A stretch of DNA of 64,000 bases. Origin: Mobula hypostoma (lineage: Eukaryota). A model generated the notes under the pieces. The model made no database searches. It was given only the letters and a program-made list of their open reading frames with translations, and was not told where the DNA came from. The stretch covers positions 8,060,001-8,124,000 of the forward strand of contig NC_086108.1 of the NCBI RefSeq assembly GCF_963921235.1, in the 5' to 3' direction. Each line of letters opens with the position of its first letter. Position 1 is the stretch's first letter. A program made the translations under genes and the position numbers. Below, in pieces: positions 736 to 40,780 of the stretch.

Positions 736-2444
736 TTGTGGTGAGTGAAGTTATCCACACTGGTTCAGGAGCCTGATGGTTGTGGGGTAATAATTGTTCC
801 TGAACCTGGTGGTGTGGGACCTGAGGCTCATTGTGGTGAGTGAAGTTATCCACACTGGTTCAGGAGCCTGATGGTTGTGGGGTAATAATTGTTCCTGAAC
901 CTGGTGGTGTGGGACCTGAGGCTCATTGTGGTGAGTGAAGTTATCCACACTGGTTCAGGAGCCTGATGGTTGTGGGGTAATAATTGTTCCTGAACCTGGT
1001 GGTGTGGGACCTGAGGCTCATTGTGGTGAGTGAAGTTATCCACACTGGTTCAGGAGCCTGATGGTTGTGGGGTAATAACTGTTCCTGAACCTGGTGGTGT
1101 GGGACCTGAGGCTCATTGTGGTGAGTGACGTTATCCACACTGGTTCAGGAGCCTGATGGTTGTGGGGTAATAACTGTCCCTGAACCTGGTGGTGTGGGAC
1201 CTGAGGCTCATTGTGGTGAATGAAGTTATCCACACTGGTTCAGGAGCCTGATGGTTGTGGGGTAATAACTATTCCTGAACCTGGTGGTGTGGGACCTGAG
1301 ACTCATTATGGTGAGTGAAGTTATCCACACTGGTTCAGGAGCCTGATGGTTGTGGGGTGATAACTGTTCCTGAACCTGGTGGTGTGGGACCTGAGGCTCA
1401 TTGTGGTGAGTGAAGTTATCCACACTGGTTCAGGAGCCTGATGGTTGTGGGGTGATAGTTGTTCCTGAACCTGGTGGTGTGGGACCTGAGGCTCATTGTG
1501 GTGAGTGAAGTTATCCACACTGGTTCAGGAGCCTGATGGTTGTGGGGTGATAACTGTTCCTGAACCTGGTGGTGTGGGACCTGAGGCTCATTGTGGTGAG
1601 TGACGTTATCCACACTGGTTCAGGAGCCTGATGGTTGTGGGGTGATAACTGTTCCTGAACCTGGTGGTGTGGGACCTGAGGCTCATTGTGGTGAGTGAAG
1701 TTATCCACACTGGTTCAGGAGCCTGATGGTTGTGGGGTAATAACTGTCCCTGAACCTGGTGGTGTGGGACCTGAGGCTCATTGTGGTGAGTGAAGTTATC
1801 CACACTGGTTCAGGAGCCTGATGGTTGTGGGGTAATAACTGTCCCTGAACCTGGTGGTGTGGGACCTGAGGCTCATTGTGGTGAGTGAAGTTATCCATAC
1901 TGGTTCAGGAGCCTGATGGTTGTGGGGTAATAACTGTCCCTGAACCTGGTGGTGTGGGACCTGAGGCTCATTGTGGTGAGTGAAGTTATCCACACTGGTT
2001 CAGGAATCTGATGGTTGTGGGGTAATAACTGTTCCTGAAGCTGGTGGTGTGGGACCTGAGGCTCATTGTGGTGAGTGAAGTTATCCACACTGGTTCAGGA
2101 GCCTGATGGTTGTGGGGTAATAACTGTTCCTGAACCTGGTGGTGTGGGACCTGAGGCTCATTGTGGTGAGTGAAGTTATCCACACTGGTTCAGGAGCCTG
2201 ATGGTTGTGGGGTAATAACTGTTCCTGAACCTGGTGGTGTGGGACCTGAGGCTCATTGTGGTGAGTGAAGTTATCCACACTGGTTCAGCAGCCTGATGGT
2301 TGTGGGGTAATAACTGTTCCTGAACCTGGTGGTGTGGAACCTGAGGCTCATTGTGGTGAGTGAAGTTATCCACACTGGTTCAGCAGCCTGATGGTTGTGG
2401 GGTAATAACTGTTCCTGAACCTGGTGGTGTGGGACCTGAGGCTC
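736..2444 (-). repeat. 95-bp tandem array 1 (~18 units) derived from the Rex1 ORF end
   Basis: TTATCCACAC recurs every 95 nt from 751 to 2366. The unit encodes LRSHTTRFRNSYYPTTIRLLN, the Rex1/Babar RT C-terminus. Confidence 0.97.
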
Positions 2445-2609
2445 TTGCACATCCTTTCCGATTGCAGCAGTGAGAAGAGAGCATGGTCTAGGTGGTAGTA
2501 GTTTGAGGTAGGTGGTTTAGTAGGATGTGTTTCTTTTTTTAAAAAAATGGAAGTTTCACAGTGATTTTTTCACTAGTCCTTCAGAGCACTTTACTGGAGA
2601 AAGTTGTAT

Positions 2610-2960
2610 CTTAGTCCACTCCATCATGGGCACTAGCCTCCGTAGTAACCGGGGCATCGTCAAGGAGCGATGCCTCAAAAAGGTGGTGTCCATCATTAAG
2701 GACCCCCATCACCCAGGACATGCCCTCTTCTCATTGCTACCATCAAGAAGGAGGTACAGGAGCCTGAAGACACACTAACAAGACTTAAGGCTCCTGTACC
2801 TCCTTCCTGATGGAGCAGCAAGAAGAGAGAATGCCAGGATGGTGGGGGGGTCCTTGATGATCGATTCTGCTTTCTTATGCAGCGCTCCATATAAAAGCGC
2901 TCAACGGTAGGGAGTATTTGCTGGCAATGGACTGGGCTGTATCCACCACTGTCTGTTCCT
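2610..2960. mobile_element. Two Rex1 3' fragments in inverted orientation
   Basis: [18 protein letters not shown]...RYRSLK on + (to 2778) and the homologous segment on - from 2788. Confidence 0.75.
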
Positions 2961-3505
2961 GGGTATTCATTAAGAAGCAGGTTTCCACTTCTGATCTGAT
3001 TTTTTTTTCTCACTCCCACTGTGGGCAGGATTGTTTGAATCTAACAGTCAATCATTGAATACTTTAATGACTCTAAGTTGCCCTGGAACTGTGACAGAGA
3101 GATATCAGACCTGGTCAAAACCTGTCCTCCCTGGAGAGAGAAAGAGCGAGAGAGGTGAGAAATGGGAATTGGGAGCCAGTAGGCATTGGCAATAGCGTCT
3201 TTCTAAGTATTTCTTTCACTCTTTCTCAACTTTTTACTTGTGTGACCATAGGGAAACAGATTAATTCACTTTACTAACTTTATTTAAAGACTTTAAATTA
3301 AAACATTTTTCAGAAAAAGTCTTTGTTATTTATAGGTTTTCATAAGTTATATTGTATTTCTTTATTTTCCTGTAAATACTTCCGAGAAAATTAATCTCAA
3401 GGTAATATATAGTGACATTTATGTACTTTGATAATAAATTTTACTTGGAGTGGTGCCACAACAATAACCTTTTATTCATTGTCAGCAAAACCAAAGAGCT
3501 GATTA

Positions 3506-4304
3506 CACTGGACAACAAAGATTTTGCTTCCTGAATACTTCTGGGTTGATCTTATGGATTTTGGGCTGCTGATCATGAAAATCAGCAGGAAATTTCTCTA
3601 TCACACACCATACCTTTGAAATTGCCTATATTTGTTATTTCAATTCATAATTCAAGTCAGAGCAGCTTATACCAAGATTAAGGAAGGCACGTTTGTCGGT
3701 ACAATTCAAACAGATCATCAATGACAGGCATTTCAATGGACTTCTAGTGGGACCGGAGAAAATCGCATTGAAGGTATTCAAGGATGTTGCTGGAAGTTTT
3801 CTTGGCAACTACAGAGCATCAAACTACGTGCAGCTGGTTGACAACATGCTTCAAGCATACAAAACCATGAAGAACAACATGTCACTGAAGATTCATTTTC
3901 TGCATTCCCATTTAGACTTCTTCTCTGCAAATCTTTGTGCTGTTAGTGACGAGCATGGTGAAAGGTTTCACCAGGACCTTGTGGTCATGGAGAAACGGTA
4001 TCAGGGCAACTGGAATCCATCAGTGCTGTCTGAATATTATTGGACACTTACGTGAGAAGCTTCAGACACTGAGCACAAATGAAAATTACCAACAAAACAT
4101 TTTTAGTTGAACTATTACAAAGCGTCAGCACTGTTAAGTAATTAAACACATTATATTCAATAAAAGTTAATTTCTTGTTTCTCCAAATCCCTATGTGATA
4201 CAAGTAGCCTTAAATTATATTTTGTGTTCAGCTTCAAGTAGTCTATCATAAACAAAAAAAAATTCTGAGGAAGCAACACTTTCAAAAAAAATTGTTCTCC
4301 CGCA
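3506..4304 (+). mobile_element. Internally deleted Chapaev3-like (CMC) DNA transposon
   Basis: ORF 3693-4055 contains MSLKIHFLHSHLDFF...AVSDEHGERFHQD...MEKRYQG. Left end is CACTGGACAACAA, with a degenerate complement at 4292-4304. TTA is duplicated on both sides. Removing the element restores the Rex1 frame KTKELIID. Confidence 0.8.
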
Positions 4305-4342
4305 TTATTGACAACAGGAGGAGGAAACCAGAGGCCCATGAG

Positions 4343-4546
4343 CCAGTCCTCATGGGTCGTATCACATCCAGTCCTCACTGGTCATATCGCGTCCAGTCCT
4401 CACGGGTCGTATCACATCCAGTCCTCACTGATCGTATCACATCCAGTCCTCACTGGTCGTTTCACATCCAGTCCTCACTGGTCGTACCACATCCAGTCCT
4501 CACTGGTCGTATCACCTCCAGCCCTCACTGGTCGTTTCACATCCAG
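4343..4546 (+). repeat. 25-bp minisatellite (~8 units, CCAGTCCTCACTGGTCGTATCACAT)
   Basis: CCAGTCCT recurs every 25 nt from 4343. Confidence 0.92.
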
Positions 4547-4740
4547 GAATGCAAAAGGTTATACAGAAAGTGGTGCTCAGGTTCAGTCCATCACGGTTAG
4601 ACACTCCCCACCACTGAGCAGATCTACATGGAGCACTGCCATTAGAAAGCATCATCCATCACTAAAGACCACCACCATCCAGGCCATGCCCTCTTCTCAC
4701 GACTATCATTGGGCAGGAGGAATGGGAGCTCTAGGTTCAA

Positions 4741-4910
4741 TACCACCAGGTTCAGGAACAGTTATTACCCCACAACCATCAGGCTCCTGAACCAGTGTGG
4801 ATAACTTCACTCACCACAATGAGCCTCAGGTCCCACACCACCAGGTTCAGGAACAGTTATTACCCCACAACCATCAGGCTCCTGAACCAGTGTGGATAAC
4901 TTCACTCACC
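4741..4910 (+). repeat. 95-bp repeat dimer (array 4)
   Basis: Two units with the same CACCACAATGAGCCTCAGG junction, in the opposite orientation to array 1. Confidence 0.9.
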
Positions 4911-5169
4911 TCAACCCTGACTCACTTTGAAGAAGTCTTCAACTTAAGTCCTCACTACTTATTTTGTTATTTGCACAAGTCGTCTCACTTTTTAAATTTA
5001 TTTTATAAATATTATTTTGTTATTTGTACAGTTTGTCTTCTTTTGCCAATTGGTTGTTTGTCAGTCTTTGTTATTTATAGTTTTTTTATAAATTCTATTA
5101 TGTTTCCTTGTTTTCCTATAAATGTCTGCTAGAAAATTATTCTTAAGGTTGTATATGTGATATAGATAT

Positions 5170-7740
5170 CGTCATCATCTTCATCATTTTGTGCCGCGTT
5201 GTGTGACGTAGGTGATCATGGCCTCATGTCCATGATTGTTCTTGGCAAATTTATCTACAGAAATGGTTTGCCATTCCCTTCTTCTGAACAGTGTCTTTAC
5301 AAGATTTTTAATTGGGTTAGGGCAAATTATGAGGCTATAAGGCTAGAACTTGCGGGTGTGAATTGGGATGATGTTTTTGCAGGGAAATTTACTATGGACA
5401 TGTGGTCGATGTTTAGAGGTCTCTTGCAGGATGTTAGGGATAAATTTGTCCCGGTGAGGAAGATAAAGAATGGTAGGGTGAAGGAACCATGGGTGACAAG
5501 TGGGGTAGAAAATCTAGTCAGGTGGAAGAAGATAGCACACATGAGGTTTAGGAAGCAAGGATCGGATGGGTCTATTGAGGAATATAGGGAAACAAGAAAG
5601 GAGCTTAAGAAGGGGCTGAGAAGAGCAAGAAGGGGGCATGAGAAGGCCTTGGCGAGTAGGGTAAAGGAAAACCTCAAGGCATTCTTCAATTATGTGAAGA
5701 ACAAAAGGATGACAGGAGTGAAGGTAGGACCTATTAGAGATAAAGGTGGGAAGATGTTCCTGGAGGCTGTGGAAGTGAGCGAGGTCCTCAGTGAATACTT
5801 CTCTTAGGTATTCACCAATGAGAGGGAACTTGATGATGGTGAGGACAATATGAGTGAGGCTGATGTTCTGGAGCATGTTGATATTAAGAGAGAGGAGGTG
5901 TTGGAGTTGTTAAAATGCATTAGGACGGATAAGTCCCTGGGGCCTGATGGAATATTCCCCAGGCTGCTCCATGAGGTGAGGGAAGAGATTGCTGAGCCTC
6001 TGGCTAGGATCTTTATGTCCTCGTTGTCCATGGGAATGGTACCAGAGGATTGGAGGAAGGCAAATGTTGTCCCATTGTTCAAAAAAGGTAGTAGGGATAG
6101 TCCGAGTAATTATAGACCAGTGAGCCTTACGTCTGTGGTGGGAAAGCTGTTGGAAAAGAGTCTTAGAGATAGGATCTATGGGCATTTAGAGAATCATGGT
6201 CTGATCAGGGACAGTCAGCATGGCTTTGTGAAGGGCAGATCGTGTCTAACAAGCCTGATAGAGTTCTTTGAGGAGGTGACCAGGCATATAGATGAGGGTA
6301 GGGCAGTGGATGTGATCTATATGGATTTTAGTAAAGCATTTGACAAGGTTCCACACAGTAGGCTTATTCAGAAAGTCAGAAGGCATGGGATCCAGGGAAG
6401 TTTGGCCAGGTGGATTCAGAATTGGCTTGCCTGCAGAAGGCAGAGGGTCATGGGGTGGAGGGAGTACGTTCAGATTGGAGGATTGTGACTAGTGGTGTCC
6501 CACAAGGATCTGTTCTGGGACCTCTACTTTTCATGACTTTTATTAACGACCTGGATGTGGGGGTAGAAGGGTGGGTTGGCAAGTTTGCAGACGACATGAA
6601 GGTTGGTGGTGTTGTAGATAGTGTAGAGGATTGTCGAAGATTGCAGAGAGACATTGATAGGTTGCAGAAGTGGGCTGAGAAGTGGCAGATAGAGTTCAAC
6701 CCGGAGAAGTGTGAGGTGGTACACTTTGGAAGGACAAACTCCAAGGCAGAGGACACAGTAAATGGCAGGATACTTGGTAGTGTGGAGGAGCAGAGGGATC
6801 TGGGAGTACATGTCCACAAATCCATGAAAGTTGCCTCACAGGTAGATAGGGTAGTTAAGAAAGCTTATGGGGTGTTAGCTTTCATAAGTGGAGAGACAGA
6901 GTTTAAGAGTTGCGATGTAATGATGCAGCTCTATAAAACTCTGGTTAGGCCACACTTGGAGCACTGTGTCCAGTTCTGGTCGCCTCACTATAGGAAGGAT
7001 GTGGAAGCATTGGAAAGGGTACAGAGAAGATTTACCAGGATGCTGCCTGGTTTAGAGAGTATGGATTATGATCAGAGATTAAGGGAGCTAGGGCTTTACT
7101 CTTTGGAGAGAAGGAGGATGAGAGGAGACTTGATAGAGGTGTACAAGATAATAAGAGGAATAGATAGAGTGGACAGCCAGCACCTCTTCCCCAGGGCACC
7201 ACTGCTCAATACAAGAGGACATGGCTTTAAGGTAAGGGGTTGGGAAGTTCAAGAGGGATATTAGAGGAAGGTTTTTTACTCAGAGAGTGGTTGGTGCATG
7301 GAATGCACTGCCTGAGTCAGTGGTGGAGGCAGATACACTTGTGAAGTTTAAGAGACTACTAGACAGGTATATGGTGGAATTTAAGGTTGGGGGGTTATAT
7401 GGGAGGCAGGATTTGAGGGTCGGCACAACATTGTGGGCCGAAGGGCCTGTACTGTGCTGTACTATTCTATGTGCTATTAAGATGGGTGACCCCAGCCATT
7501 ATTAATACTCTTCAGAGTTTGTCTGCCTGGCGTCAGTGGTCACATAACCAGGACTTGTGATCTGCACCAGCTGATCATACGACCGTCCATCACCTGCTCC
7601 CATGGCTTCACGTGACCCTGATCGGGGTGATGGGAGGGGCTAAGCAGGTGCTACCCCTTGTCCAAGGGTAACCTGCAAGCTAGAGGAGGGAGTTAGCGCT
7701 TTACACCTTCTTTGGTAGGGACATATCTCCACCCCGCCAA
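5170..7740 (-). mobile_element. RTE/BovB-type SINE-like element (family A), split by the CR1 into 5170-5305 and 7479-7740
   Basis: Matches copies at 38505-38805 and 56300-56690. Contains the BovB-like AAGGCAATGGCAAACCAC motif. Confidence 0.65.
5306..7478 (+). mobile_element. 5'-truncated CR1 LINE (ORF2 RT with a stop and frameshifts)
   Basis: Motifs NYRPVSLTSVVGKLLE, MDFSKAFDKVPH, SGVPQGSVLGP, KFADD, LVRPHLE. AAGAT is duplicated at 5301-5305 and 7479-7483 inside an RTE-derived SINE. Confidence 0.95.
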
Positions 7741-7769
7741 ATACTTTGATAATACATTTGATCTGAAGG

Positions 7770-8420
7770 GTCAAAAATCCTGGATGTCAAGATCTCTGAG
7801 GATCTAACCTGGTCCCAACATATTGATGCAGCTACAAAGAAGGCAAGACAGTGGCTCTACTTCGTTAGGAGTTTGAGGAGATTTGGCTTGTCACCTAACA
7901 CACTCGAACACTTCTATAGATGTACTGACAGGCTGCATCACTGTCTGGTATGATGGGTGGGTGGGGCAGGACTGAAAGAAGCTACAGAAAGTTATAAAAT
8001 TAGTCAGCTCCATCTGGGGTACCAGCCTCCATTGTATCCCAGACTTCTTCAAGCAGCGATGCCTTAAAAAGGTGGTATCCATCATTAAGGACCCCCATCA
8101 CCCAGGACATACCCTCTTCTCACTGCTACCATCAGGGAGGAGGTACAGGAGCCTGAAGGGATTCAGTGATTCAGGAACAGCTTCTTCACCTCTGCCATCA
8201 GATTCCCAAATGGACATTGAACCCCTGAACTTTACCTCACCTTTTTAAAAAATTATTTCTGTTTTCGTACTGTTTTTAATATAACTATACATGTATACTT
8301 ATTGTAATTGACTGATTTATTTGTTTTCTTTCTGTATTATATATTGCATTGAACTGACGCTGCTAAGTTAACAAATTTCACGACGCATGCCGGTGATAAT
8401 AAACCTGATTCTGACTCTGA
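7770..8420 (+). mobile_element. Rex1/Babar 3' fragment
   Basis: Degenerate RT C-terminus; 3' tail AATAAACCTGATTCTGACTCTGA. Confidence 0.8.
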
Positions 8421-8789
8421 GATTTTCTCTCCCCCTGTGGATGCTGATCGACTCGCTGAGACCTTCAGCAGATTGTGCTCGGGCTTGGCCTCCCTGGCAC
8501 CCTGAGGCTGGAGCAGCTCAGTTCCACCTCTGTCCGTGGGAACCCACGTACAAGTGGGCTGCTGAGCGCACCACCCTCCCCCTTTGTGCCAAACCTAATT
8601 CATCCACACACACGCAACGGGATGCTGCAGATGCTGGAAATCCAGAGCAACACACTCAGAAAGTGCTGGAGAAACTCAGCAGGTCAGGCAGCACCTATGG
8701 AGGGGAATAAACAGTCGACAGCTGAGGACGAGAACCTTCATCAGGACTGGAAAGGAAGGAAGCGGAAGCTGTAAGTTATCGGGGTAGTA

Positions 8790-9390
8790 TTGGGCCATTC
8801 AGCCCTTAGGTGTCTACTCCCCCATTCCACCATGGCTGCAATATTAACCCTCTCAACCCCATTCTCCCAACTTCCCTCCGTAACCTCTGACACCCTTACA
8901 AGCCAAGAAGCTATAAACCTCCACTTTAAATATACCCAATGACTTGGCCTCCACAGCCACCTGTGACAGATTCACCGCTCGCTGACTAAAGAAATCCCTC
9001 CTCATCTCTGTTCTAAATGGACGTCCCTCTATTCTGAGGCTGCGCCCTCTGCTCCTAAACTCCCTCGCCATAGGAAACATCTCCACATCCACTCTATCTC
9101 CACCTTTCGATGTTTGATAGGTTTCAAAGAGACCAGTCCCCGCCCCCCCCCACCATCATTCTTCTAAGCTCCAGCGAGTACAGGCTCACAGCCATCAAAC
9201 GCTCCTCATTTGTTAACCCTTTCATTCCTGGGATAATTCTTGGGAACCTCCTTAGGACCCTCTCCAATACCAGAACATCCTTTCTTGGATAAGGGGCCCA
9301 AAACTGCACACAAATATTCCAAGCGGTATCTGGCCAATGCCTTATAAAGCCTCAGTATCACATCCTTGAATTGCATTCTAGTCCTCTTGA
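8790..9390 (-). mobile_element. CR1 3' fragment
   Basis: LYKAL..., QFWAPY..KD, TEMRRDFFSQR on the minus strand. Confidence 0.85.
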
Positions 9391-9392
9391 CA

Positions 9393-9845: not shown

Positions 9846-9859
9846 CTCTTCCCCATTAC

Positions 9860-10360: not shown

Positions 10361-10384
10361 GATGGTGAGAAAGGGATGGAGGCA

Positions 10385-11700
10385 GGACAGAGAGGGAGAG
10401 AGAGAGAGGGGGAGAGAGAGAGAGGGAGAGAGAGAGGGTGAGGGGGGGAGAGACAGGGGGAGAGGGAGGGGGGAGAGAGAGGGAGAGAGAGAGGGGAGAG
10501 AGAGAGGGAGAGGGAGAGAGAGAGGGGAGAGGGAGGGGGGAGAGAGAGAGGGAGAGAGAGAGGGAGAAAGAGAGGGAGAGAGAGGGGGAGAGAGACAGGG
10601 GGAGAGGGAGGGGGGAGAGAGAGGGAGAGAGAGAGGGAGAGAGAGAGGGAGAGGGAGAGAGAGAGGGGAGAGGGAGGGGGGAGAGAGAGAGGGAGAAAGA
10701 GAGGGAGAGAGAGAGGGGGGGAGAGAGAGGGAGAGAGAGAGGGTGAGAGAGGGGGAGAGAGGGGGGGAGAGAGAGAGGGAAAGAGAGAGGGTGAGAGAGA
10801 GAGGGAGAGGGAGAGAGAGAGGGGAGAGGGAGGGGGGAGAGAGAGAGGGAGAGAGAGAGGGAGAAAGAGAGGGAGAGAGAGAGGGGGGAGAGAGAGAGGG
10901 AGAGAGAGAGGGTGAGAGAGGGGGGAGAGAGAGGGGGGGAGAGAGAGAGGGAAAGAGAGAGGGTGAGAGAGGGGGGAGAGAGAGAGGGAGAGAGAGAGGG
11001 AGAAAGAGAGGGAGAGAGAGGGGGAGAGAGAGAGGGAAAGAGAGAGGGTGAGAGAGGGGGGAGAGAGAGAGGGAGAGAGAGAGGGGAGAGGGAGAGGGGG
11101 AGAGAAGGAGGGAGAGGGAGAAAGAGGAACAGGGATGGAGAGAGTGGGAGACAGAGAGAGAGGCATACAGAGGGGACACAGGAGGGTATAAGGTGAGAGA
11201 GAGAGAGAGGGAGGGAGGGAGAGAGAGGGTGAGAGAGAGAGAGAGGGAGGGAGGGAGGGAGAGGGAGAGGGCAAGAGAGAGTGGGAGAGAGAGAAGGGGA
11301 GAAAAAGAGAGGGAAAGCGAGTATGTGAGGTGGGGCTGAGAAAGAGGGTAGAGAGCTGAGAGACCAAGGAGGAGGGGGAGGGATGAGTGCATTGCTGAGT
11401 GGAGAAGGGAGGGAGGGGAACAGGCTAGGGGAGTGGGGGATTTCAAGGGAGGGCGAGAGGGTGGGAACAGTGGAATTGGGGAGAGAGGGACGAGAGGTGA
11501 AGGTATTGAAAGGGGAGGGAAAAGGGAGTTGGAAAGGTATGAAGAGAGAAGAGGTACAGGGAGACTGCAAACAGGAGAAGATGTTGGAACAGGATGGGAG
11601 AGAAATGGAAGGGTGTGGGAGGGAGGTCAGGAGAAGGAGAGTATTTGGGGAAGAAAGAGAATGGGTGAGAGGTCTGTGAAAAGGAGAGAGAGGGACTGAG
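10385..11700. repeat. Polypurine (GA/GGGA)n low-complexity tract
   Basis: Almost pure G/A on the + strand from 10385 to about 11340, purine-rich to about 11700. Confidence 0.95.
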
Positions 11701-12635: not shown

Positions 12636-13289
12636 CACTTGTCTCCTGCACTAACCTGTATCTCCCGACTTACTAAATATTCAATATAAGACAATTTGGG
12701 CTCTTGTATGTCAGAAACACCTCAGCGGCTCCCCGCTGAGATCTTGCAGCAATCCGTTTAGCAAGGAGTCAACGAGTAAAGAAGGTTTCGTATGACAGGG
12801 ACAGCCAGTTCTCGGGGCAGATGGTGCTGGATCAGACATGGAAATATGCACAAAGCTGAGGAACCAACCCACAATCCGAAGAAACAAGCAAGAAAGATGA
12901 AGAGTTTTGACCCGAAGTGTTGACTTTCCATTTCCTTCCAAGACACTGTATGACCTGTTAAATTCCTCCAATATTTGGTCATTCCAAAACGTCAGAGTTG
13001 AGATTTCAGAGGAAGGTTCTGTGCGTAGCTCAGCACCGGGAGCAAAGCTGTGCCTTGCGTGTTCTGAGTCCAGTGTCAGTAGGACATCCAACGTCAAAGC
13101 AAATGTATTATTAAATTGACATTTAACTACCTTGACATTCATTTTCTTGCAGACATTTACAGGAAAATAAAGAAATAAAATTGCATTTATGAAAATCTAT
13201 ACATGACAAACAACCAATGTGCAAAAGAAGACAAACTGTGCAAATAAAAAATAAAACTGAGAGCATGAGTTGTGAAGTCCTTGAGTGTA

Positions 13290-13799
13290 CAGTACTGTGC
13301 AAAGGTCTCAGGCAGATATATAGAGCGAGGGTGCCTCCAACTTTTCCACAGTGCTGTATTTGTCAAGGTGGAGCGGGGCGAGTTTGTAAATCTGGCGGGA
13401 GAAAAGGATGTTGGGAATGGGGAGGGTGGAGCGCCATGTGGGACAAGTGGCAGAGACGGAGTGCCAGGGGTGAGTACAGACACACCCAGCCCCGAGTCGC
13501 CAGGAAAGGTCATGTGATTCCAAACAAATTACGAATTTGTTTATTGATCATCGCAGAATGGTCTCTGGTGCTTCTCTCTCCTCTCTCCTTTTCCCAACCA
13601 TGATTCCCCTCTCCCTGCCCCCTTCCCACTCCCAGTCCACAGCAGAGACCCATATCAGAATCAGGTTTATCATCACTCACAAAATTTGAATTTTTTTTTG
13701 CAGCAGTACACTACAATACATAAAACCACCACATTACTGTGCAAATGTCAGGGCACCCTCACTATATATACATGTGTCTAAGACTTTTGCACAGTACTG
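13290..13799. mobile_element. Composite Tc1/mariner-type MITE, copy 1
   Basis: TA|CAGTACTGTGCAAA...TTTGCACAGTACTG|TA, inserted in a Rex1 3' UTR. Confidence 0.85.
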
Positions 13800-13845
13800 T
13801 AAGTTTGTAGGCTGAGGAATCAGTTCACAATTGAGGGTGAAGGTA

Positions 13846-14780
13846 GTTATCCACACTGGTTCAGGAGCCTGATGGTTGTGGGGTAATAACTGTTCCTGAA
13901 CCTGGTGGTGTGGGACCTGAGGCTCATTGTGGTGAGTGAAGTTATCCACACTGGTTCAGGAGGCTGATGGTTGTGGGGTAATAACTGTTCCTGAACCTGG
14001 TGGTGTGGGACCTGAGGCTCATTGTGGTGAGTGAAGTTATCCACACTGGTTCAGGAGCCTGATGGTTGTGGGGTAATAACTGTTCCTGAACCTGGTGGTG
14101 TGGGACCTGAGGCTCATTGTGGTGAGTGAAGTTATCCACACTGGTTCAGGAGCCTGATGGTTGTGGGGTAATAACTGTTCCTGAACCTGGTGGTGTGGGA
14201 CCTGAGGCTCATTGTGGTGAGTGAAGTTATCCACACTGGTCCAGGAGCCTGATGGTTGTGGGGTAATAACTGTTCCTGAACCTGGTGGTGTGGGACCTGA
14301 GGCTCATTGTGCTGAGTGAAGTTATCCACACTGGTTCAGGAGCCTGATGGTTGTGGGGTAATAACTGTTCCTGAACCTGGTGGTGTGGGACCTGAGGCTC
14401 ATTGTGGTGAGTGAAGTTATCCACACTGGTTCAGGAGCCTGATGGTTGTGGGGTGATAACTGTTCTTGAACCTGGTGGTATGGGACCTGAGGCTCATTGT
14501 ACTGAGTGAAGTTATCCACACTGGTTCAGGAGCCTGATGGTTGTGGGGTAATAACTGTTCCTGAACCTGGTGGTGTGGGACCTGAGGCTCATTGTGCTGA
14601 GTGAAGTTATCCACACTGGTTCAGGAGCCTGATGGTTGTGGGGTAATAACTGTTCCTGAACCTGGTGGTGTGGGACCTGAGGCTCATTGTGGTGAGTGAA
14701 GTTATCCACACTGGTTCAGGAGCCTGATGGTTGTAGGGTAATAACTGTTCCTGAACCTGGTGGTGTGGGGCCTAGGGCTC
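13846..14780 (-). repeat. 95-bp tandem array 2 (~10 units)
   Basis: Period of 95 from 13847 to 14702. Confidence 0.97.
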
Positions 14781-14829
14781 CTGTACCTCCTGCCCAATTG
14801 AAGTGTTGAGAAGAGAGATGGCCTCGATA

Positions 14830-15019
14830 CAACATTCTACAGCTGCACGGATCAACTGTTGCTCCGAGCAAGAAATTTGACATGGTCTGAAAACTGTGGG
14901 GCGCTTTAATAAAACATTATATAAAAGATAATTCCTGCTGTGCAGCAACAAAGGTGTGTGCGAGGAAGCATTTCGGTTACTGTGCGGCCATGCACCCACA
15001 CAGCTTAGTGGGAACAGTG
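14830..15019. mobile_element. hAT-like MITE inserted in Rex1
   Basis: Right end CTTAGTGGGAACAGTG. Degenerate 8-bp duplication CCTCGATA/CCTGGATT. Rex1 sequence resumes after it. Confidence 0.5.
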
Positions 15020-16324
15020 CCTGGATTGTAGGGGTCCTTAAGATGATCGATGCTGCTTCTTCGCGGCTGCACGCAATGCAAACGTGCTTCTTCCTCCTCT
15101 ACCCATAATGGGCAGTGTTAACAGAGCCACTTCAGTGATGATTTGATGTTTCAGAAGTGGTTAGAAACCTCGGTGATGAGATTTCAGTGGAAAGTTTCCT
15201 GTAGCTGTCTCAGGGACATGTTTTATTGAGGTGTTTATTTATATATTTTTGTCATAAATTCATGATTATTTTATCACCTTGAAGTATTAATGTAAGGTTT
15301 ATTTAGTGTAGTTTTTAATGGGTCACATGACCAGAGTTTGATAAAAGCATGACTGTGGTATTATGGGTCAGAACCAACATGGAGGCAGAGGAAGACACAT
15401 GGCCCTAAAATAACCTTATTCTGCAAGAGGCCCACAAAGTAATTTCTTTATTTGTTTATATAATGTTGTTGAAGTGCCTTTATATGAACAGTGTGATACA
15501 TTTTAGTGATTTATTTGATTTCAACACACTTCTGATATGCCAACGTGTTTGGGCCTGTTTATCGGCAGACACCAGCTTGAGAGACTTTAAAAGACAGAGA
15601 GATGTATGTTTCAAACTTTTATGTCCTTTATTTTCTTGTAGTTTTCACAGTGTCTACTGAAGAAAGAGAGCGAGAGAAATAAAAATAAATCTTCAAGGAC
15701 ATCTGTATTTTGCGTGGCCATTATTTCACTGGACTGGTGCAGTTACATTTCCTATGTGTCTGAATACCAGGAAAGAGACCATTCCCAAGAGTTTTAGAAC
15801 AAACTTAACATCTAGAAACAAGCAAGCGTCTTGGCACAGGGCCTGCTGGACAATATCAATTGTCTGTCACTGACTAGAGTGATAGAGAAGATGAGACTCT
15901 GCAAGAGGTTAGTGCCTGCAAGATTCCGGTTGTTTACTGAATTATTGATTGGTCTGACACTAGCAATTGTGGAGGTGATTGCTTCAGGGAGGGAAGGCGG
16001 TCCAAGGTGGAGGTAAAATTCTGAAATTTCTGGGAGGGGCATCGCAACAGACAATGTACTGAATAACTTCAGCACCAAACAGCAAGTCCACAGAGCTGGA
16101 GTGCAGATGGAACCCAGTCATGATAGATGTGAATTTCTGGCAAGACAAAAGGGTTCAGCAGGAAAGAGTTCAGCAGACTCAGAAGGCAGAGACCCTGATG
16201 TTGTAAAATTGAGCGATGTCGTAGCTTGATGTAGATTAATGAAAATAAAATTATTAGCTTTATTTGTACATTAAAACATTAAAACGTACTACGGAGGGGT
16301 ATTAAAATATGGCATTCCATCCAA

Positions 16325-16627
16325 TGGTCAGAATCAGAATTAGATTTAATATCACGATATATGTCATGAAATTTGTTGTTATTGGGCAGTGTTACGCAGC
16401 AATACAAAATAATTAAAAATGTAAATAACAATAAGAAATATATATTAAAAAGTTAAATAAAATAAGTTATGCAAAAAAAGTGCTGGGGTAGCATTCATGG
16501 GTTCAATGTCTATTCAGAAATCAGATGGCAGAGTGGCTGAAGCTGTTCCTGAATCATTGAGTGTGTATCTTCAGGCTTCTGTACCTCCTCCCTGATGGTA
16601 GCAATGAGAAGAGGGCACGTCCTGGGG
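16325..16627 (-). mobile_element. Rex1/Babar 3' fragment
   Basis: TCAGAATCAGAAT tail and ORF-end motif; truncated at the microsatellite. Confidence 0.75.
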
Positions 16628-16660
16628 AGTGTGCGTCTGTGTGTGCGCGTGTGTGTGACG

Positions 16661-16696
<36 letters not shown>

Positions 16697-16698
16697 CG

Positions 16699-16748
<50 letters not shown>

Positions 16749-16791
16749 CAGTATGTGTCTGTGTGTGTGTGTGTGTGTGTGTCTGTGTGTA

Positions 16792-16822
<31 letters not shown>

Positions 16823-16922
16823 CAGTATGTGTGTGTGTGTCTGTGTGTGTGTGTGTGAGAGAGAGAGACGGTATGTGTCTGTGTGTGTGTGTGAGATGGT
16901 GTGTCTGTGTCTGTGCATGTGC

Positions 16923-16957
<35 letters not shown>

Positions 16958-16958
16958 G

Positions 16959-17022
<64 letters not shown>

Positions 17023-17026
17023 CGGT

Positions 17027-17073
<47 letters not shown>

Positions 17074-17074
17074 G

Positions 17075-17114
<40 letters not shown>

Positions 17115-17260
17115 CAGTATGTGTCTGTGTGTGTGTGTGTGTGTGTCTGTGTGTGTGTGTGTGAGAGAGAGAGACGGTATGTGTCTGTGTGTGTGTGTGT
17201 GAGATGGTGTGTCTGTGTCTGTGCATGTGCGTGTGTGTGTGTGAGAGAGAGAGAGAGACG

Positions 17261-17312
<52 letters not shown>

Positions 17313-17313
17313 C

Positions 17314-17375
<62 letters not shown>

Positions 17376-17376
17376 G

Positions 17377-17434
<58 letters not shown>

Positions 17435-17482
17435 CGGTGTGTGTGTGTGTGTGTGTGTGAGATGGTGTGTCTGTGTCTGTGC

Positions 17483-17514
<32 letters not shown>

Positions 17515-17542
17515 CGATATGTGTCTGTGTGTGTGGGTGTGG

Positions 17543-17606
<64 letters not shown>

Positions 17607-17668
17607 CGGGGTGTGTGTGTGTGTGTGTGTGAGACGGTGTGTCTGTGTCTGTGTGCATGTGTGTGTGT
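16628..17668. repeat. Compound (TG)n/(GA)n microsatellite
   Basis: Alternating TG and GA runs joined by GACGGT/GACAGT linkers. Confidence 0.97.
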
Positions 17669-18319: not shown

Positions 18320-19130
18320 GTAGACTTCAGCAGAGGTCCATGAGTCAGTCCTCATCGGAGGACCAGAGCTGGAGAGGGTCAGCAACTTTAAATTCCTGCG
18401 CGTCACTATTTCAGAGGACCTGTCCTGGACCCTACACATAACTTCAATTGTGAAGGAAACATGGCCGTGCTTCTACTTCTTCAGGTGTTTGTGGAGATCT
18501 GGCATGACATCTAAATCTTTGACGAACTTCTATAGATGTGTGGTGGAGAGTGGGATGACTAGCTGAATCACAGCCTGGTATGAAAACACCAATGCCTTGG
18601 AATGGAAATTCATGAATGGTCGTGAATTCGGCCCAGTACATCACAGGTAAAGCCCTCCCAACCACTCAGCACATCCACATGAAACTTCTTCATAGGAAAG
18701 CAGCATCCATCATCAGAGATCCCCACCACCCAGTCGTGCTCTCTTCGCCGTGCTGCCATCAGGTAGAAGGTACAAGAGCCTCAGGACTCGTACCATCAGA
18801 GTTCAAGAACAGCTACTACCCCTCAACCATCAGGCTCCTGAACAAAGGGGAATAACTTCACTCACTTGCCCATCCATTGAGATGTTCCCACAACCAATGA
18901 TCTCACTTTAAGGAATCTTTTCCCTGTTATCTCATGTTCTCGTTATTTATTGCTATTTATTTATATTTTCATTTGTACAGTTTGTTGTCTTCTGCACTCT
19001 GGTTGACCTTTCACTGATCCTGTTATAGTTACTGTTCTATAGATTTGCTGAGTATGCCCGCAGGAAAGTAAATCTCAGGATTGTATATGCTGAAATATGT
19101 ACTTTCATAAGTCACAATTACTTTGAACCA
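18320..19130 (+). mobile_element. Rex1/Babar 3' fragment with a single, unamplified ORF end
   Basis: KAASIIRDPHHP...FKNSYYPSTIRLLN followed by 3' UTR. Confidence 0.85.
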
Positions 19131-21612: not shown

Positions 21613-22444
21613 ATAGGCTGATGTTGACAGGTTCTTGATTAGTCAGGGCATCAAAGGTCACAGGAAGAAAAGAAGGAGAATAGAGTTTAGAGGGTTACTA
21701 CCCCTCAACTATCAGGCTCCTGAACAGAGAGGATAACTATACTCATTAATTGAGGTATTCCTAAACCAATGATCTCACTTAAAGGACTGTTTACCTTGTT
21801 ATTTCAAACTCTCATTATTTATTAGTATTTATTTATATTTGCATTTGCACAGTTTGGTGTCGTCTGCACTCTGGTTGATCTTTCATTGATCCTGTTATAG
21901 TTACTGTTCTATAGATTTGCTGAGTATGCCTGCAGGAAAATGAATCTCAGGGTTGTATGTGGTGACATGCATGTTCTCTGATAATAAATTTTATTTTGAA
22001 TTTTGACTGGGGTAACAAATCAAGCATGATGAAATGGTGGAGCAGATTCGATGGGCTGAATGACCTAATTCTGCTTCTAAATCTTTTGGTTCTATTGTTT
22101 GCAAGATAAAAACACAGTACTCAGCTATGTAGAGCTTGTTATCTTTAATTGGCTTGTTGACACTCCCGGAGCAGTGTTTTTTTTTCTTACACACAGTTAT
22201 AGGTTCCAAAAGGATGTTATTATAACTGCAGAGAAAATCATTAGTGACGGATCTGGAATCAGTCCCCTGTTTATTCCATCTCTCATGTTAATCTGTGATT
22301 CATCTTAATGATCTTATTTGTCATTCTGAATCCACTCCCTTCTTGTGAATCCTGGTGCCTGGAACTCACGCACTCACTCTCTCTCTCTCTCTCTCTCCAG
22401 GCAGCCTCTCAGTCTGATGGCCTGCTCTTTGTAAGTGGTTTTTG

Positions 22445-33322: not shown

Positions 33323-33375
33323 CAGGGGTCCACGGACACATTGGTTCATGGCCTAACAAAGGTCGGGAACCCCTG
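33323..33375. mobile_element. Tiny hAT-like MITE in a CR1 tail
   Basis: CAGGGGT...ACCCCTG termini; degenerate 8-bp TSD CTCTAAAC/CTCGAGAC. Confidence 0.55.
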
Positions 33376-34416: not shown

Positions 34417-34514
34417 TGTGGAATTCATTGCCACTGACAGATGTTGAGGCCATCATTGTGTATTTCTTGGAATGGAGGGACATTGCTTTAGAACACAGAT
34501 AAGGAATCTCTTTG

Positions 34515-37318: not shown

Positions 37319-37714
37319 GATACAAGCGCTGGGTCAGATTGAGAAGGTCAATCAAAGGTCAAAGGGCCGGACTGGCATTTGGTTTGCTACTTGGCGAGGT
37401 TTGCTCATCTCTGTGCTGAACTGAAGTTGTGACCAGCAACTAGCAGGCTCCTGAATTGGCTGCAGCGTCGACTGGCCTCGTGGCTGGGGACTCACTTCCG
37501 TTCTGAATGTTATTTGCCTACTCTTATCGTTTGCATGATTTGTTTTTTTTTTCTTGCTGCACATTGGGTGTTTGATGGTCTTCTGTCTTTTTAATGGATT
37601 TGTTGCTCTGTGGCTGCCTGTAAGGAGACAAATCTCAAGGTTTCTTAAACTTTGAACCTTGCATCAAAGACCAACACAGGACAAGGATATGCTGGGGGCG
37701 ACCCGTAAGTGTCA

Positions 37715-38085
37715 CGGTGGTGTCTGAAAAGAGGATGCTGTCCAAGTCGCATGCCATCTTGGTCAAGGTCTTCCATCCACTACATAATGTACTGGTTGGG
37801 CACAGGAGTACATTCAGCCAGAGACTCATTCCACTGAGATGCAACACAGAGCGTCATAGGAAGTCATTCCTGTCTGTGGCCATCAAACTTTACAACTCCT
37901 CCCTTGGAGGGTCAGACACCCTGAGCCTATAGGTCCTGGACTTATTTCATAATTTACTGGCATAATTTACATATTACTATTTAATTATTTATGGTTCTAT
38001 TACTATTTATTATTTATGGTGCAACTGTAACGAAAACCAATTTCCCCCAGGATCAATAAAGTATAACTATGACTATGACTACGAC
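37715..38085 (+). mobile_element. Rex1/Babar-type 3' fragment (different subfamily)
   Basis: HPLH...RCNTERHRKSFLSVAIKLYN; AATAAA and an (ACTATG)n tail. Confidence 0.7.
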
Positions 38086-38504
38086 CAAGTTTTGAAGTTC
38101 AAAGTACACTTATTATTTAAGCATGTACACTAAGTACAACTTTGAGATTGCACTTTGACTTTTGTATTTAAGGCAGAGATTGGTAAGGTTGACATTTCGG
38201 GCTGAATACTTTTTTTCCATAGATGCTGCCTGGCCTGCTGAGTTGCTCCAGTATTTTGTGTGGGTGCTTGGATTTCCAGCATCTGCAGGTTTTCTCTTGT
38301 TTGTGGAGAGATTGGTAGGTGCTTGGTTAGTCAGGAGGTTAAGGGTTATGGGAAAAAACAGGAGAATGGAATTTAAAAAATCAGCCTCCACTCAGTGTTA
38401 GTTGTCACCTCGGCATTTTTGTCTGTGTTACTTCAGACTGCATGGCAGTCTCTGCACTGCTCTGTCGTTCTGTGTTCATCACTGTGTCTATTATTACCTT
38501 GTAC

Positions 38505-38805
38505 TCTGCTTAGCTCCCCCTTCTCCACCCCGATCAGGGTCATGTGGAGCCACGGGATCAGGTGGTGGGTGTTTGTATGAGCAGCCGGTGCAGATCACAA
38601 GTCCTGGTTACGCGACCACTGACGCCAGGCAGACAATCTCTGAAGAGTTTTGATAATGGCTGGGGTCACCCGACTTGTAAAGACACTGCCCAGAAGAAGG
38701 CAATGGAAAACCACTTCTGTAGAAAAATTTGCCGAGAACTATCACGGTCATGGAAAGACCACGACTGCCTACATCGTACGACACGGCGCATAATGGCGAT
38801 GTAAT
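38505..38805 (+). mobile_element. RTE/BovB-type SINE-like element (family A)
   Basis: GAAGAAGGCAATGGAAAACCACTTCTGTAG; homologous to the other two copies. Confidence 0.65.
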
Positions 38806-39089
38806 ACGACACGAGACATAACGAACGAACACTGTTTACTCTGTGGGCTTCACGTGAGCAAGTACACTTCATCGCAGCCTGTTGCACGTGACAATAATAA
38901 CCCCCCCCCCCGATTTAATCTTTGCCTAATCACAGGTCCGTTTACAGTGACTAATTAACCCATTAACTGGTACGTCTTTGGGCTGTGGGAGGAACCTAGG
39001 GCACCTGGGGGAAACCCACCCATTCCACAGGGAGAATTTACAAACTCCTTACAGTGGACTCTGATCTCCATCACCTTCAAGTGTAATAG

Positions 39090-39390
39090 CTTCCTTCCTT
39101 TTTGGCCCTTTACCTTTTCCACCTATCATCTCCCAGCTTCTCACTTCATTCCCCCAGCATCCCCACTCACCTACCTTCCCCCTCACCTGTCACCTGCCAG
39201 CTCGTACTCCTCCCCTCCCCCACCTTTTCATTCTGGCTTCTTCCCTCTTCCTTTCCGGTCCTGAAGAAGAGTCCCGCCCCAAGATGTCACTGTTTATTCA
39301 TCTCCATAGACGCTGCCTGACCTGCTGAGTTCCGCCAGCATTTTGTGCTCTGGATTTCCAACATCTACAGAGATTCTTGTGTTTATGACT
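39090..39390 (+). mobile_element. Penelope-like terminal-repeat fragment
   Basis: Pyrimidine-rich segment, decayed hammerhead, then GACGCTGCCTGACCTGCTGAGTTCC. Confidence 0.7.
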
Positions 39391-39529
39391 GAAGCCAATT
39401 CTTGTAGCTAGTGTTCCCACCTTGGCTTGGGCACCTGGTCACTGAGACAGACACCAGAAACAACCTCGATTTCTGTAAACTGACTGTGGGGTCAGTAAAT
39501 GTAAAGTTAAACTGTAATTTACTTACTAT

Positions 39530-40780
39530 CCAAAGTTCAAAGTAAATTTTATTATCAAAGTATGTATACATCACATATAGAACCCTGAGACTCATTTTCT
39601 TGCAGACATTCACAGGAAAATAAAGAAATACAATAGAATTTATGAAAAACTATACATAAATAAGGACTGACAATGTGCAGAAGACAAATTGTGAAAATAA
39701 TAAATAAATAATATTGAGAACATCAGTTGTAGAGTCCTTGAAAGTGAGTCCATAGGTTGTGGAGTCAGTTCAGAGGTGAGTGAAGTTATCCACACTGGTT
39801 CAGGAGCCTGATGGTTGTGGGGTAATAACTGTTCCTGAACCTGGTGGTGTGGGACCTGAGGCTCATTGTGGTGAGTGAAGTTACCCACACTGGTTCAGGA
39901 GTCTGATGGTCGTGGGGTAATAACTGTTCCTGAACCTGGTGGTGTGGGACCTGAGGCTCATTGTGGTGAGTGAAGTTACCCACACTGGTTCAGGAGCCTG
40001 ATGGTCGTGGGGTAATAACTGTTCCTGAACCTGGTGGTGTGGGACCTGAGGCTCATTGTGGTGAGTGAAGTTATCCACACCGGTTCAGGAGCCTGATGGT
40101 TGTGGGGTAATAACTGTTCCTGAACCTGGTGGTGTGGGACCTGAGGCTCATTGTGGTGAGTGAAGTTATCCACACTGGTCCAGGAGCCTGATGGTTGTGG
40201 GGTGATAACTGTTCCTGAACCTGGTGGTGTGGGACCTGAGGCTCATTGTGGTGAGTGAAGTTATCCACACCGGTTCAGGAGCCTGGTGGTTGTGGGGTAA
40301 CAACTGTTCCTGAACCTGGTGGTGTGGGACCTGAGGCTCATTGTGGTGAGTGAAGTTATCCACACTGGTTCAGGAGCCTGATGGTTGTGGGGTGATAACT
40401 ATTCCTGAACCTGGTGGTGTGGGACCTGAGACCCTTGTACCTCCTGCCTGATGACAGCAGTGAGAAGAGAGCATGGCCTGGGTGGTGGGGATCTCTGATG
40501 ATGGATGCTGCTGTCCTATGACAGCATTTCATGTCGATGTGTTCAATGGTTGGGAGGGCTTCACCCATGATGTACTGTGCCGAATCTTTTTGTAGGATTT
40601 TCCATTCAAAGACAGTGGTGTTTCCATACCAGGCTGTGATGCAGCCAGTCAAAACACTCTCCACTACACATCTGGAGAAGTTTCCAAAGGTTTTTGTTGT
40701 CAAGCCAAATTTTTGCTGACTCTTGAGGAAGTACAGGTGTTGCAGTGCTTTCTTCACAATTGCACTTACAACATGGGTCT
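39530..40780 (-). mobile_element. Rex1/Babar 3' fragment hosting array 3
   Basis: ORF 40356-40757 (ESVLTGCITAWYGN...DPHHPGHALFSLL) then array, then 3' UTR. Confidence 0.88.
39775..40430 (-). repeat. 95-bp tandem array 3 (~7 units)
   Basis: Period of 95 from 39786 to 40356. Runs directly into Rex1 ORF 40356-40757. Confidence 0.97.

What the first reader, a model, noticed from the sequence alone, without database searches (positions are those of the whole stretch)
736..40430. A 95-bp satellite from the Rex1 ORF end, apparently spreading or homogenising between dispersed LINE copies
Seen: four Rex1 remnants (736-2444, ~18 units; 4741-4910, 2 units; 13846-14780, ~10 units; 39775-40430, ~7 units) carry the same 95-bp unit at the same position. 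All share the junction CACTCACCACAA-T-GAGCCTCAGG. The host elements are visibly diverged from each other, while the units are near-identical. Only host 1 has a 3' UTR (CACCACAAC) matching the junction; hosts 2, 3 and 4 read CACCCTCAA, CACCTCTGA and CACCTCAAC. Rare variants are shared across loci: GGTCCAGG at ~14240 and ~40179, AACTATTCC at ~1270 and ~40400, GGTGATAA in arrays 1-3. Rex1 copies at ~18800 and ~63250 are unamplified. The unit contains a 9-bp inverted repeat (GGTTCAGGA/TCCTGAACC). Inference: the junction arose once, at CAA microhomology. It then either invaded homologous LINE copies (gene conversion or circle reintegration) or was carried by a master element and later homogenised between loci. 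This is my best candidate for an undescribed system.
Basis: partly seen in the sequence, partly recalled or inferred. Interest (0 to 1): 0.72.

Follow-up and report, generated by a model that had tools for sequence, protein, structure and literature searches.

The report
Satellite re-entering its parent LINE copies
A 95-base repeat matching the tail of a jumping gene sits as near-identical arrays at the same spot inside four old, separately inserted copies of that gene in what is likely a ray genome, likely because DNA repair copied it in from existing arrays and it then grew in place, which would be a clear vertebrate case of a partly known way that satellite DNA spreads.

Summary
Observation confirmed. 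Four LINE remnants carry 18, 2, 10 and 7 copies of one 95-bp unit with one junction. Units differ by about 3%; host flanks differ by 13-37%. This excludes retrotransposition of a young subfamily. Host letters are missing from the core of all eight edge units, and the borders stay at the unit's edges. Variants cluster in neighbouring units (P=0.0004) and within arrays (P=0.001), so the arrays grew in place; an assembly artefact is unlikely, though no read spans an array. Best reading (0.6): non-allelic gene conversion copied pure array into old copies of one LINE subfamily. Circle re-entry (0.15) and an old dimer-bearing master element with later homogenisation (0.15) remain open. Filled versus empty status in the nearest relative was not resolved. 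The scan found this before: eight earlier notes describe a 95-bp LINE-derived unit 0.6-4.3 Mb upstream in this genome, including a block of at least 64 kb (not checked here). Precedents: snake SINE satellites, Drosophila Rsp-like, maize CRM1TR. New variant of a known kind.

The parts
736..2444 (-). Array 1: 18 units of 95 bp in host 1
2445..2496 (-). Host 1: short remnant of the LINE ORF upstream of the array
   Evidence: 83% to host 4 upstream flank over 52 nt
125..735 (-). Host 1: 3' UTR, interrupted at about 260-620 by other sequence, ending in short 7-nt repeats
4584..4725 (+). Host 2: LINE ORF remnant upstream of the array
   Evidence: laid contigs cover 4550-4698 with 0 differences (organism A) and 4553-4682 with 3 (organism B)
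4726..4915 (+). Array 2: two units; host-specific letters only at unit positions 5-16 of the first unit and 91-95 of the last
4916..5164 (+). Host 2: 3' UTR with a deletion near its start
   Evidence: an organism B contig covers 4891-5076 with 5 differences
13129..13835 (-). Host 3: 3' UTR, split by a 515-bp insertion at 13288-13801
13836..14780 (-). Array 3: 10 units; host-specific letters at positions 6-10 of the first unit and from 82 of the last
14781..14828 (-). Host 3: short remnant of the LINE ORF upstream of the array
   Evidence: organism B contigs cover 14788-15100 at about 95-97%
39520..39774 (-). Host 4: 3' UTR ending in short 7-nt repeats
39775..40434 (-). Array 4: 7 units; host-specific letters at positions 2-4 of the first unit and a short deletion after position 90 of the last
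40359..40790 (-). Host 4: end of the LINE ORF, 140 open codons running into the first unit; the stop codon lies inside the unit, so further units fall in the 3' UTR
   Evidence: PF09004 at 19.4 bits, under its cut-off of 21; 66% to a Hypanus sabinus protein
14116..14210 (-). One typical unit: last 25 codons of the ORF, the stop and 17 nt of UTR; 9-bp inverted repeat; the majority unit has no CpG
   Evidence: fold z -2.2 on the + strand, -1.5 on the - strand
18776..18865 (+). Unamplified LINE copy of another subfamily, 84% like the unit
63213..63300 (-). Unamplified LINE copy of that other subfamily, 88.5% like the unit with a 32-nt exact run

Best explanation
A 95-bp satellite matching the end of a Rex1/Babar-like LINE ORF sits inside four old, separately inserted copies of one LINE subfamily, likely because homology-directed repair copied several units of pure array into each copy's own single 95-bp segment, after which each array likely grew and shrank in place. 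SHOWN: one unit and one junction in four hosts; units about 3% apart, hosts 13-37% apart; host letters absent from positions 17-81 of the edge units; borders at or inside the unit's edges; local clustering of variants. INFERRED: (1) The junction arose once. (2) A break in a host's single segment was repaired on an existing array, the two ends pairing in different registers (synthesis-dependent strand annealing or double template switch), so that n units replaced one. (3) The donor was pure array, because host-specific letters begin at or inside the unit's edge at all eight borders. (4) Unequal exchange or slippage then expanded the arrays and wore away remaining host letters. (5) The process is regional and depends on identity. 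The donor may be a neighbouring array or the large block that earlier notes place 4.2 Mb upstream; this was not determined.
For: Unit versus flank divergence: 3.2-3.3% against 13-23% in the tail and 17.5-37.5% in the 40 nt upstream. The first and last units of the four hosts differ from the majority at 6 places in 8 x 66 core positions, and at most 2 of these are not clearly array variants. If each host had kept one copy of its own letters, 17-26 differences would be expected at 6.5-10% host decay; P of 6 or fewer is 1e-3 to 9e-7. Host-specific letters start right at the unit edges. Neighbouring units share 11 variants against 4.0 by permutation (P=0.0004), and 8 of 12 multi-copy variants are private to one array against 2.9 (P=0.001). 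4 of 4 copies of the host subfamily that keep the whole segment are filled; 0 of 7 whole copies of two other subfamilies (55-88% like the unit) are (Fisher P=0.003; against the 2 closest alone P=0.07). Empty copies of the host subfamily exist elsewhere: of the 32 pieces listed (out of about 252,000, longest first), 16 hold one whole unit, the host-type 3' end and 20 or more non-junction letters upstream; 2 span the junction by 30 or more letters on each side (X1 and X2 are one sample). Lead only: eight earlier notes on a 95-bp LINE-derived unit all lie 0.6-4.3 Mb upstream of this window on its own piece. Precedent for the route: PMC7403614 (passages), PMC3648361 (Discussion).
Against: No read or contig spans an array, and the empty ancestral state of these four hosts was not seen: organism B holds the flanks of hosts 2 and 3, but its listed contigs stop short of the unit core. 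Old junction-bearing copies exist: one contig in organism A (4786-4886, 10 differences) and two in organism C (11-12 differences in 99-115 nt). The junction may therefore be as old as the hosts, which suits a master element. Loss of host letters at the edges can also come from later homogenisation, so it does not identify the entry route. The copy at 63213-63300 is 88.5% like the unit yet empty. Regional confinement rests on unchecked notes shown eight at a time. Young filled hosts collapse in short-word contigs, so their genome-wide number is unknown.
Confidence: 0.6

Rival explanations
1. Circles of n units popped out of an array and re-entered old LINE copies by one crossover in the shared 95 bp. 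Later exchange within each array erased the host letters.
For: Gives the same anatomy (whole units, both LINE ends kept, flanks untouched) and needs no contact between loci. Circles are reported for Rsp-like (PMC7403614, passages).
Against: One crossover leaves one full set of host letters split between the first and last unit: 17-26 expected, at most 6 seen. All four hosts, including the 2-unit host, would need complete later erasure. Circles would not obviously stay within a few Mb (lead from notes).
Confidence: 0.15
2. The duplication arose in an active master LINE, which is possible because the extra units fall behind the stop codon. The hosts were inserted already carrying two or more units, and copies near a large block were later homogenised and expanded.
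For: The ORF stays open through the first unit. All four hosts belong to one subfamily. Junction-bearing contigs 10-12% diverged exist in organisms A and C. Ogre elements carry 3' UTR arrays in this way (PMC7004042, passages).
Against: Old single-unit copies outnumber old junction-bearing ones 16 to 2 among the 32 pieces listed, yet 4 of 4 hosts here are filled. Retrotransposition scatters copies, while the earlier notes shown lie in one 4.3-Mb region (lead). This reading still needs recent transfer between loci to explain 3% against 13-37%.
Confidence: 0.15
3. Assembly or polishing artefact: reads of an abundant satellite were walked or polished into homologous LINE remnants.
For: Only the copies presumed most like the satellite are filled. 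No laid contig confirms an array, and organism A's contig at host 2 stops at 4698, short of the unit.
Against: Array-private and neighbour-clustered variants (P=0.001 and 0.0004) would not be expected to survive polishing to a satellite majority. The window has no N and runs through 0.9-1.0-kb microsatellites, which suggests long reads (inference).
Confidence: 0.05
4. Ordinary retrotransposition of a young subfamily that carries the array, or independent duplication in each host.
For: Same position in every host; dispersed copies in both orientations.
Against: Flanks are 4-10 times more diverged than units. Independent events would copy each host's own letters and would not all give the same extra T at the junction.
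Confidence: 0.03

Closest known systems
SINE-derived satellites (sSat3) of squamates, Vassetzky, Kosushkin and Ryskov 2023, PMC10702118 (read: abstract, sections 5, 17 and Discussion; supplements not opened)
   Same: Tandem repeats of one part of a retroposon at many loci; units more alike (89% in cobra) than the parent SINE copies (64%); short and very long loci side by side.
   Different: The parent there is a SINE. Most loci keep only one end of the element, and both ends are called uncommon; here all four hosts keep both sides. The sections read explain the pattern by duplication plus concerted evolution, not by entry into old copies. The units here are more uniform (about 97%).
[quoted passage not shown] 2020, PMC7403614 (passages only)
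   Same: One junction arises rarely, then seeds arrays at loci that already hold homologous sequence; interlocus gene conversion or circle re-entry proposed; spread along one chromosome.
   Different: There the two satellites are unrelated and a hybrid repeat supplies the homology. Here the satellite is itself homologous to its target, a dispersed LINE. That study showed empty syntenic sites in sister species; that test is missing here.
Maize CRM1TR, Sharma et al. 2013, PMC3648361 (abstract and Discussion)
   Same: Retrotransposon-derived tandem repeat with one junction. The authors suggest the second locus, 1.4 Mb away, may have come by intrachromosomal gene conversion, possibly by recombination with a CRM1 sequence.
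   Different: LTR element; two loci only; offered as one possibility; little exchange between loci. Here four hosts lie within 40 kb with almost no difference between arrays.
Satellites from LINE 3' ends or ORF2: chicken HinfI (CR1), cetacean common satellite, PROsat; review PMC9659126 (passages)
   Same: Unit drawn from the end of a LINE ORF and the 3' UTR.
   Different: The passages read report sequence origin only, not arrays inside old copies of the parent, and name no Rex element.
Ogre 3' UTR tandem repeats in Lathyrus, PMC7004042 (passages)
   Same: Short arrays at a fixed place behind the coding region of a retroelement, with large arrays elsewhere.
   Different: There the arrays travel with the element. 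Here the flanks are far older than the units, so carriage alone fails.
Non-allelic gene conversion among neighbouring Alu elements, PMC8230782 (passages)
   Same: Distance-dependent copying between dispersed retroposon copies, reported there within about 10 kb.
   Different: The passages read concern converted letters, not gain of tandem units. The hosts here lie 2-25 kb from the nearest filled neighbour.

Membership tests
Transposon-derived satellite/minisatellite | Head-to-tail repeats of a fixed unit | tested here: met
   Period 95, 96-98% matches, four arrays
Transposon-derived satellite/minisatellite | Unit is wholly a piece of a dispersed mobile element | tested here: met
   The unit continues the host ORF in frame and aligns to single-copy LINE segments at 84-88%
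Transposon-derived satellite/minisatellite | Concerted evolution: units more alike than parent copies | tested here: met
   3% against 13-37%
Classical satellite DNA | Long block (tens of kb or more), usually heterochromatic | not testable with these tools
   Arrays here are 0.2-1.7 kb; no genome is held; a block of at least 64 kb is known only from earlier notes
Rex1/Babar LINE (host) | Reverse transcriptase grouping with Rex1/Babar | not testable with these tools
   Only the ORF's last 140 codons were found in the hosts and no named Rex1 reference was available. PF09004-like tail; its link to Rex1/Babar is recalled, not tested
Rex1/Babar LINE (host) | Conserved 3' UTR followed by short oligonucleotide repeats; 5' truncation (PMC6274825, passages) | tested here: met
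   Shared 3' tail in four hosts, 7-nt repeats at the ends of hosts 1 and 4, all hosts 5'-truncated. This feature is not unique to Rex1
Rex1/Babar LINE (host) | AP endonuclease domain | not tested
   The hosts are truncated below this region
Homology-guided satellite seeding (Rsp-like type) | Same junction at several dispersed loci | tested here: met
   28 of 33 junctions carry the exact 23-mer
Homology-guided satellite seeding (Rsp-like type) | New arrays only where homologous sequence already lay | tested here: met
   All four arrays in the window lie in register inside LINE copies with both sides kept
Homology-guided satellite seeding (Rsp-like type) | Target present but empty at the syntenic site in a sister species | tested here: inconclusive
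   Organism B holds the flanks of hosts 2 and 3 at about 95-98%, but no listed contig crosses the unit core
Array carried by a young retrotransposing subfamily (Ogre type) | Flanks as young as the units | tested here: not met

The most novel reading that the evidence does not exclude
Satellite homing without an enzyme: the satellite uses the thousands of dead copies of its parent LINE as ready-made landing pads and advances along one chromosome from a large block. It converts nearly every sufficiently similar copy over more than 4 Mb, and each filled copy becomes the next donor, possibly helped by breaks at the unit's hairpin. The region would be a dated, mappable wave of satellite spread in a vertebrate.
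Probability: 0.25. Interest if true: 0.62.

Novelty: new variant of a known kind. Interest (0 to 1): 0.36.

Why it matters
How a satellite reaches new loci is an open question; conversion and circle re-entry are usually inferred without knowing the empty target. Here every target is an old LINE copy with its own diagnostic letters, and empty copies of the same subfamily are plentiful. With a chromosome assembly and one or two sister species, one could measure fill rate against distance and identity, map tract borders, and tell conversion from circles. It also warns that LINE ages taken from this segment are too young. No function for the host is indicated.

Tried and rejected
No whole genome is held, so genome-wide junction counts and flank trees were not possible. 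The junction 23-mer has 0 matches in metagenome contigs; this says nothing about rays. Look-ups of earlier findings by sequence, near place and relatives returned nothing. Depth near the junction first suggested that organism B lacks the satellite, but a second run of the same sample did not show this; rejected, and summed contig depth is no copy number. Unit position 47 (A) looked satellite-specific, but 16-42% of laid depth carries it in three organisms, so it was not used. Shared rare variants as proof of exchange between arrays: P=0.08 and 0.03, and one of the five is probably a host letter; weak. No target-site duplication of 8 nt or more was found at 4 of 4 hosts. Hairpin as trigger: fold z -2.2 and -1.5 for the unit against -0.2 and +0.5 for the element strand of two empty copies; G4Hunter peak 0.96. 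These values are modest, and about 70% or more of laid depth keeps the same letter at the one arm position listed as variable, so the inverted repeat looks inherited from the LINE. RNA-borne spread of a filled host was rejected, because the 3' UTRs would then be young. A coding role was rejected: reading frames through three units hit stops. Paper searches (listings only) showed no paper on this ray satellite; the library lacks most subscription journals. In bioRxiv 10.1101/2025.06.08.657570 the main text has 0 hits for 'satellite' and 'Rex'.
Full report
What is there. The four arrays are in the sequence at about the stated places: period 95 at 736-2444, 4742-4914, 13845-14780 and 39775-40430. 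In register they hold 18, 2, 10 and 7 units, and the exact 23-nt junction occurs at 28 of 33 junctions. Each array lies inside a 5'-truncated LINE copy, with ORF remnant on one side and 3' UTR on the other. No cross hits were found among the eight outer flanks tested, so these are four insertions.

The unit and the host. The unit is the last 25 codons of the ORF, the stop and 17 nt of UTR. Host 4 has 140 open codons that run into its first unit. This peptide scores 19.4 bits on PF09004, under the cut-off of 21, and is 66% identical to a Hypanus sabinus protein that carries PF09004 (atlas clusters agree). A ray as source is therefore likely. The Rex1/Babar label fits the 3' anatomy described in PMC6274825 (passages). 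It was not tested on a reverse transcriptase, and its link to PF09004 is recalled.

The age contrast. Over unit positions 16-81, units differ by 3.2% within and 3.3% between arrays; the 29 units scored at full length lie 1.6% from their majority. The 40 nt upstream differ by 17.5-37.5% between hosts and the shared tail by 13-23%. Retrotransposition of a young subfamily is excluded, and so is independent duplication, which would copy each host's own letters. Something moved sequence between loci long after the LINEs inserted.

The edges. Host-specific letters lie only at the outer ends: none inside the first unit of host 1, positions 5-16 in host 2, 6-10 in host 3 and 2-4 in host 4; in the last units from position 95, 91, 82 and 91. 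In the core, the eight edge units show 6 differences from the majority, at most 2 of them not clearly array variants. A single crossover with a circle would leave one full set of host letters, 17-26 at 6.5-10% decay; P of 6 or fewer is 1e-3 to 9e-7. So the host segment was replaced, either at entry or by later exchange within the array. These data cannot separate the two. The flanks stay host-specific up to the unit edge, so the donor was likely pure array rather than a whole filled element (inference).

Growth in place. Neighbouring units share 11 variants against 4.0 in permutations (P=0.0004), and 8 of 12 multi-copy variants are private to one array against 2.9 (P=0.001). This is the pattern expected of local duplication. 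It argues against polishing to a satellite majority and against complete ongoing mixing. Sharing between arrays is weak: 5 of 28 distinct variants, 2.6 expected, P=0.08 (0.03 counting extra occurrences), and one of the five is probably a host letter.

Which copies are filled. The window holds three subfamilies, told apart by the segment and its 3' UTR. All 4 host-type copies that keep the whole segment are filled. The 2 whole copies of a close subfamily (84% and 88.5% like the unit) and 5 of a distant one (55-69%) are empty (P=0.003 overall, 0.07 against the close pair). One partial copy at 21694 and copies that lack the segment were left out of this count. The copy at 63213 has a 32-nt exact run and is still empty, which counts against a simple identity rule.

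Reads. The best runs (organism A, one sample) hold 0.55-0.58 of the words of 2445-9300, organism B 0.35-0.42 and organism C 0.34. Five of the 23 listed runs were laid; all are assembled contigs. A contig of A matches 4550-4698 with no difference but stops before the unit; no array is confirmed by reads. B holds both flanks of host 2 (3 differences in 130 nt; 5 in 186 nt) and the upstream flank of host 3 (5 plus a gap in 107 nt; 7 in 225 nt), so these insertions likely predate the A/B split, but no listed piece crosses the unit core. Of the 32 pieces listed (longest first, from about 252,000), 16 are single-unit copies of the host type with ordinary upstream sequence, so empty hosts are common elsewhere. 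Two span the junction with 10-12 differences, one in A and one in C, and adds a second in C with only 15 letters beyond the junction. Old junction-bearing copies therefore exist, seem rare, and keep the master-element rival alive. Young filled hosts collapse in such contigs and cannot be counted.

The junction. Upstream of position 1, hosts 1 and 4 read ACAA, and the unit ends ACAAT. Joining at that homology would give 94 bp. The 95-bp unit needs one added T, or a blunt join after the host's C that made a CpG which decayed to TpG; the majority unit has no CpG. Both are inferences. Host 1's match to the junction can be a longer conversion tract, so it does not mark the origin.

Earlier scan notes (leads, not checked here). 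Eight notes describe a 95-bp LINE-derived unit at 4.29, 4.28, 4.21, 4.19, 3.82, 3.69, 1.67 and 0.63 Mb before this window. Two are large blocks (64 kb and more than 26 kb); six are short arrays in old LINE copies. I could not compare their sequence with this unit. None of the notes shown on such a unit lies on another piece, though each look-up shows only eight. If right, the window is the far edge of a regional halo around a large block. These notes gave me four of the papers and moved me away from host 1 as origin.

Mechanism. Most likely (0.6): a break in a host's single segment is repaired on an existing array, with the two ends pairing in different registers, so n units replace one; unequal exchange then changes the length. 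Circle re-entry with later erasure (0.15) and an old dimer-bearing master with later homogenisation (0.15) both fit the anatomy; artefact 0.05; simple retrotransposition or independent origin 0.03.

Comparison. It is a member of the transposon-derived tandem repeats: all three features tested were met. It works like the seeding of Rsp-like into 1.688 clusters (PMC7403614, passages), but the key test there, empty syntenic targets, was inconclusive here. Snake sSat3 shows the same contrast of 89% against 64%, mostly with one element end kept (PMC10702118, sections 5, 17, 19; its supplementary figures were not opened and may show two-ended loci in more detail). Maize CRM1TR authors proposed transfer by recombination with a parent-type element (PMC3648361, Discussion). 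Six paper searches (listings only) showed no description of this ray repeat. What is less usual is re-entry into the parent's own dispersed copies, both sides kept, at high local frequency in a vertebrate.

Verdict. The feature is real in the assembly and probably real in the animal. It is a new variant of a known kind, and a like unit was already noted eight times by this scan in the same genome. Its value is as a test bed for how satellites reach new loci. Interest 0.36.

Noticed in passing
window 2598-2915: Two LINE copies of different subfamilies are fused in inverted orientation at about 2780, both cut off at the equivalent of unit positions 14-20, giving a 74% fold-back at 2664-2888. It lies about 150-470 bp from array 1.
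   Followed up: partly
window 13288-13801: A 515-bp insertion with roughly 65-bp inverted ends splits host 3's 3' UTR; a second copy lies at 57588-58071, 72% alike.
   Followed up: no
window 55319-56302: 45-bp minisatellite, 22 copies, 97% matches; origin not examined.
   Followed up: no
window 4343-4546: 25-bp minisatellite, 8 copies, just upstream of host 2.
   Followed up: no
window 10389-11314 and 16629-17668: Degenerate (AG)n and (GT)n tracts of 0.9 and 1.0 kb; the second abuts a truncated LINE copy at 16580-16626.
   Followed up: no
runs X2 and X10, laid on window 4742-4886 and 14655-14769: Low-depth contigs carry the tandem junction with 10-12 differences, so old junction-bearing copies exist in organisms A and C.
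   Followed up: partly
window 46442-46659: A LINE copy whose ORF remnant joins its 3' tail directly, with the middle, including the 95-bp segment, missing.
   Followed up: no
same genome, other places (earlier notes): Notes describe other LINE-derived tandem repeats in this genome (27, 61 and 110 bp), suggesting it makes such repeats often.
   Followed up: no
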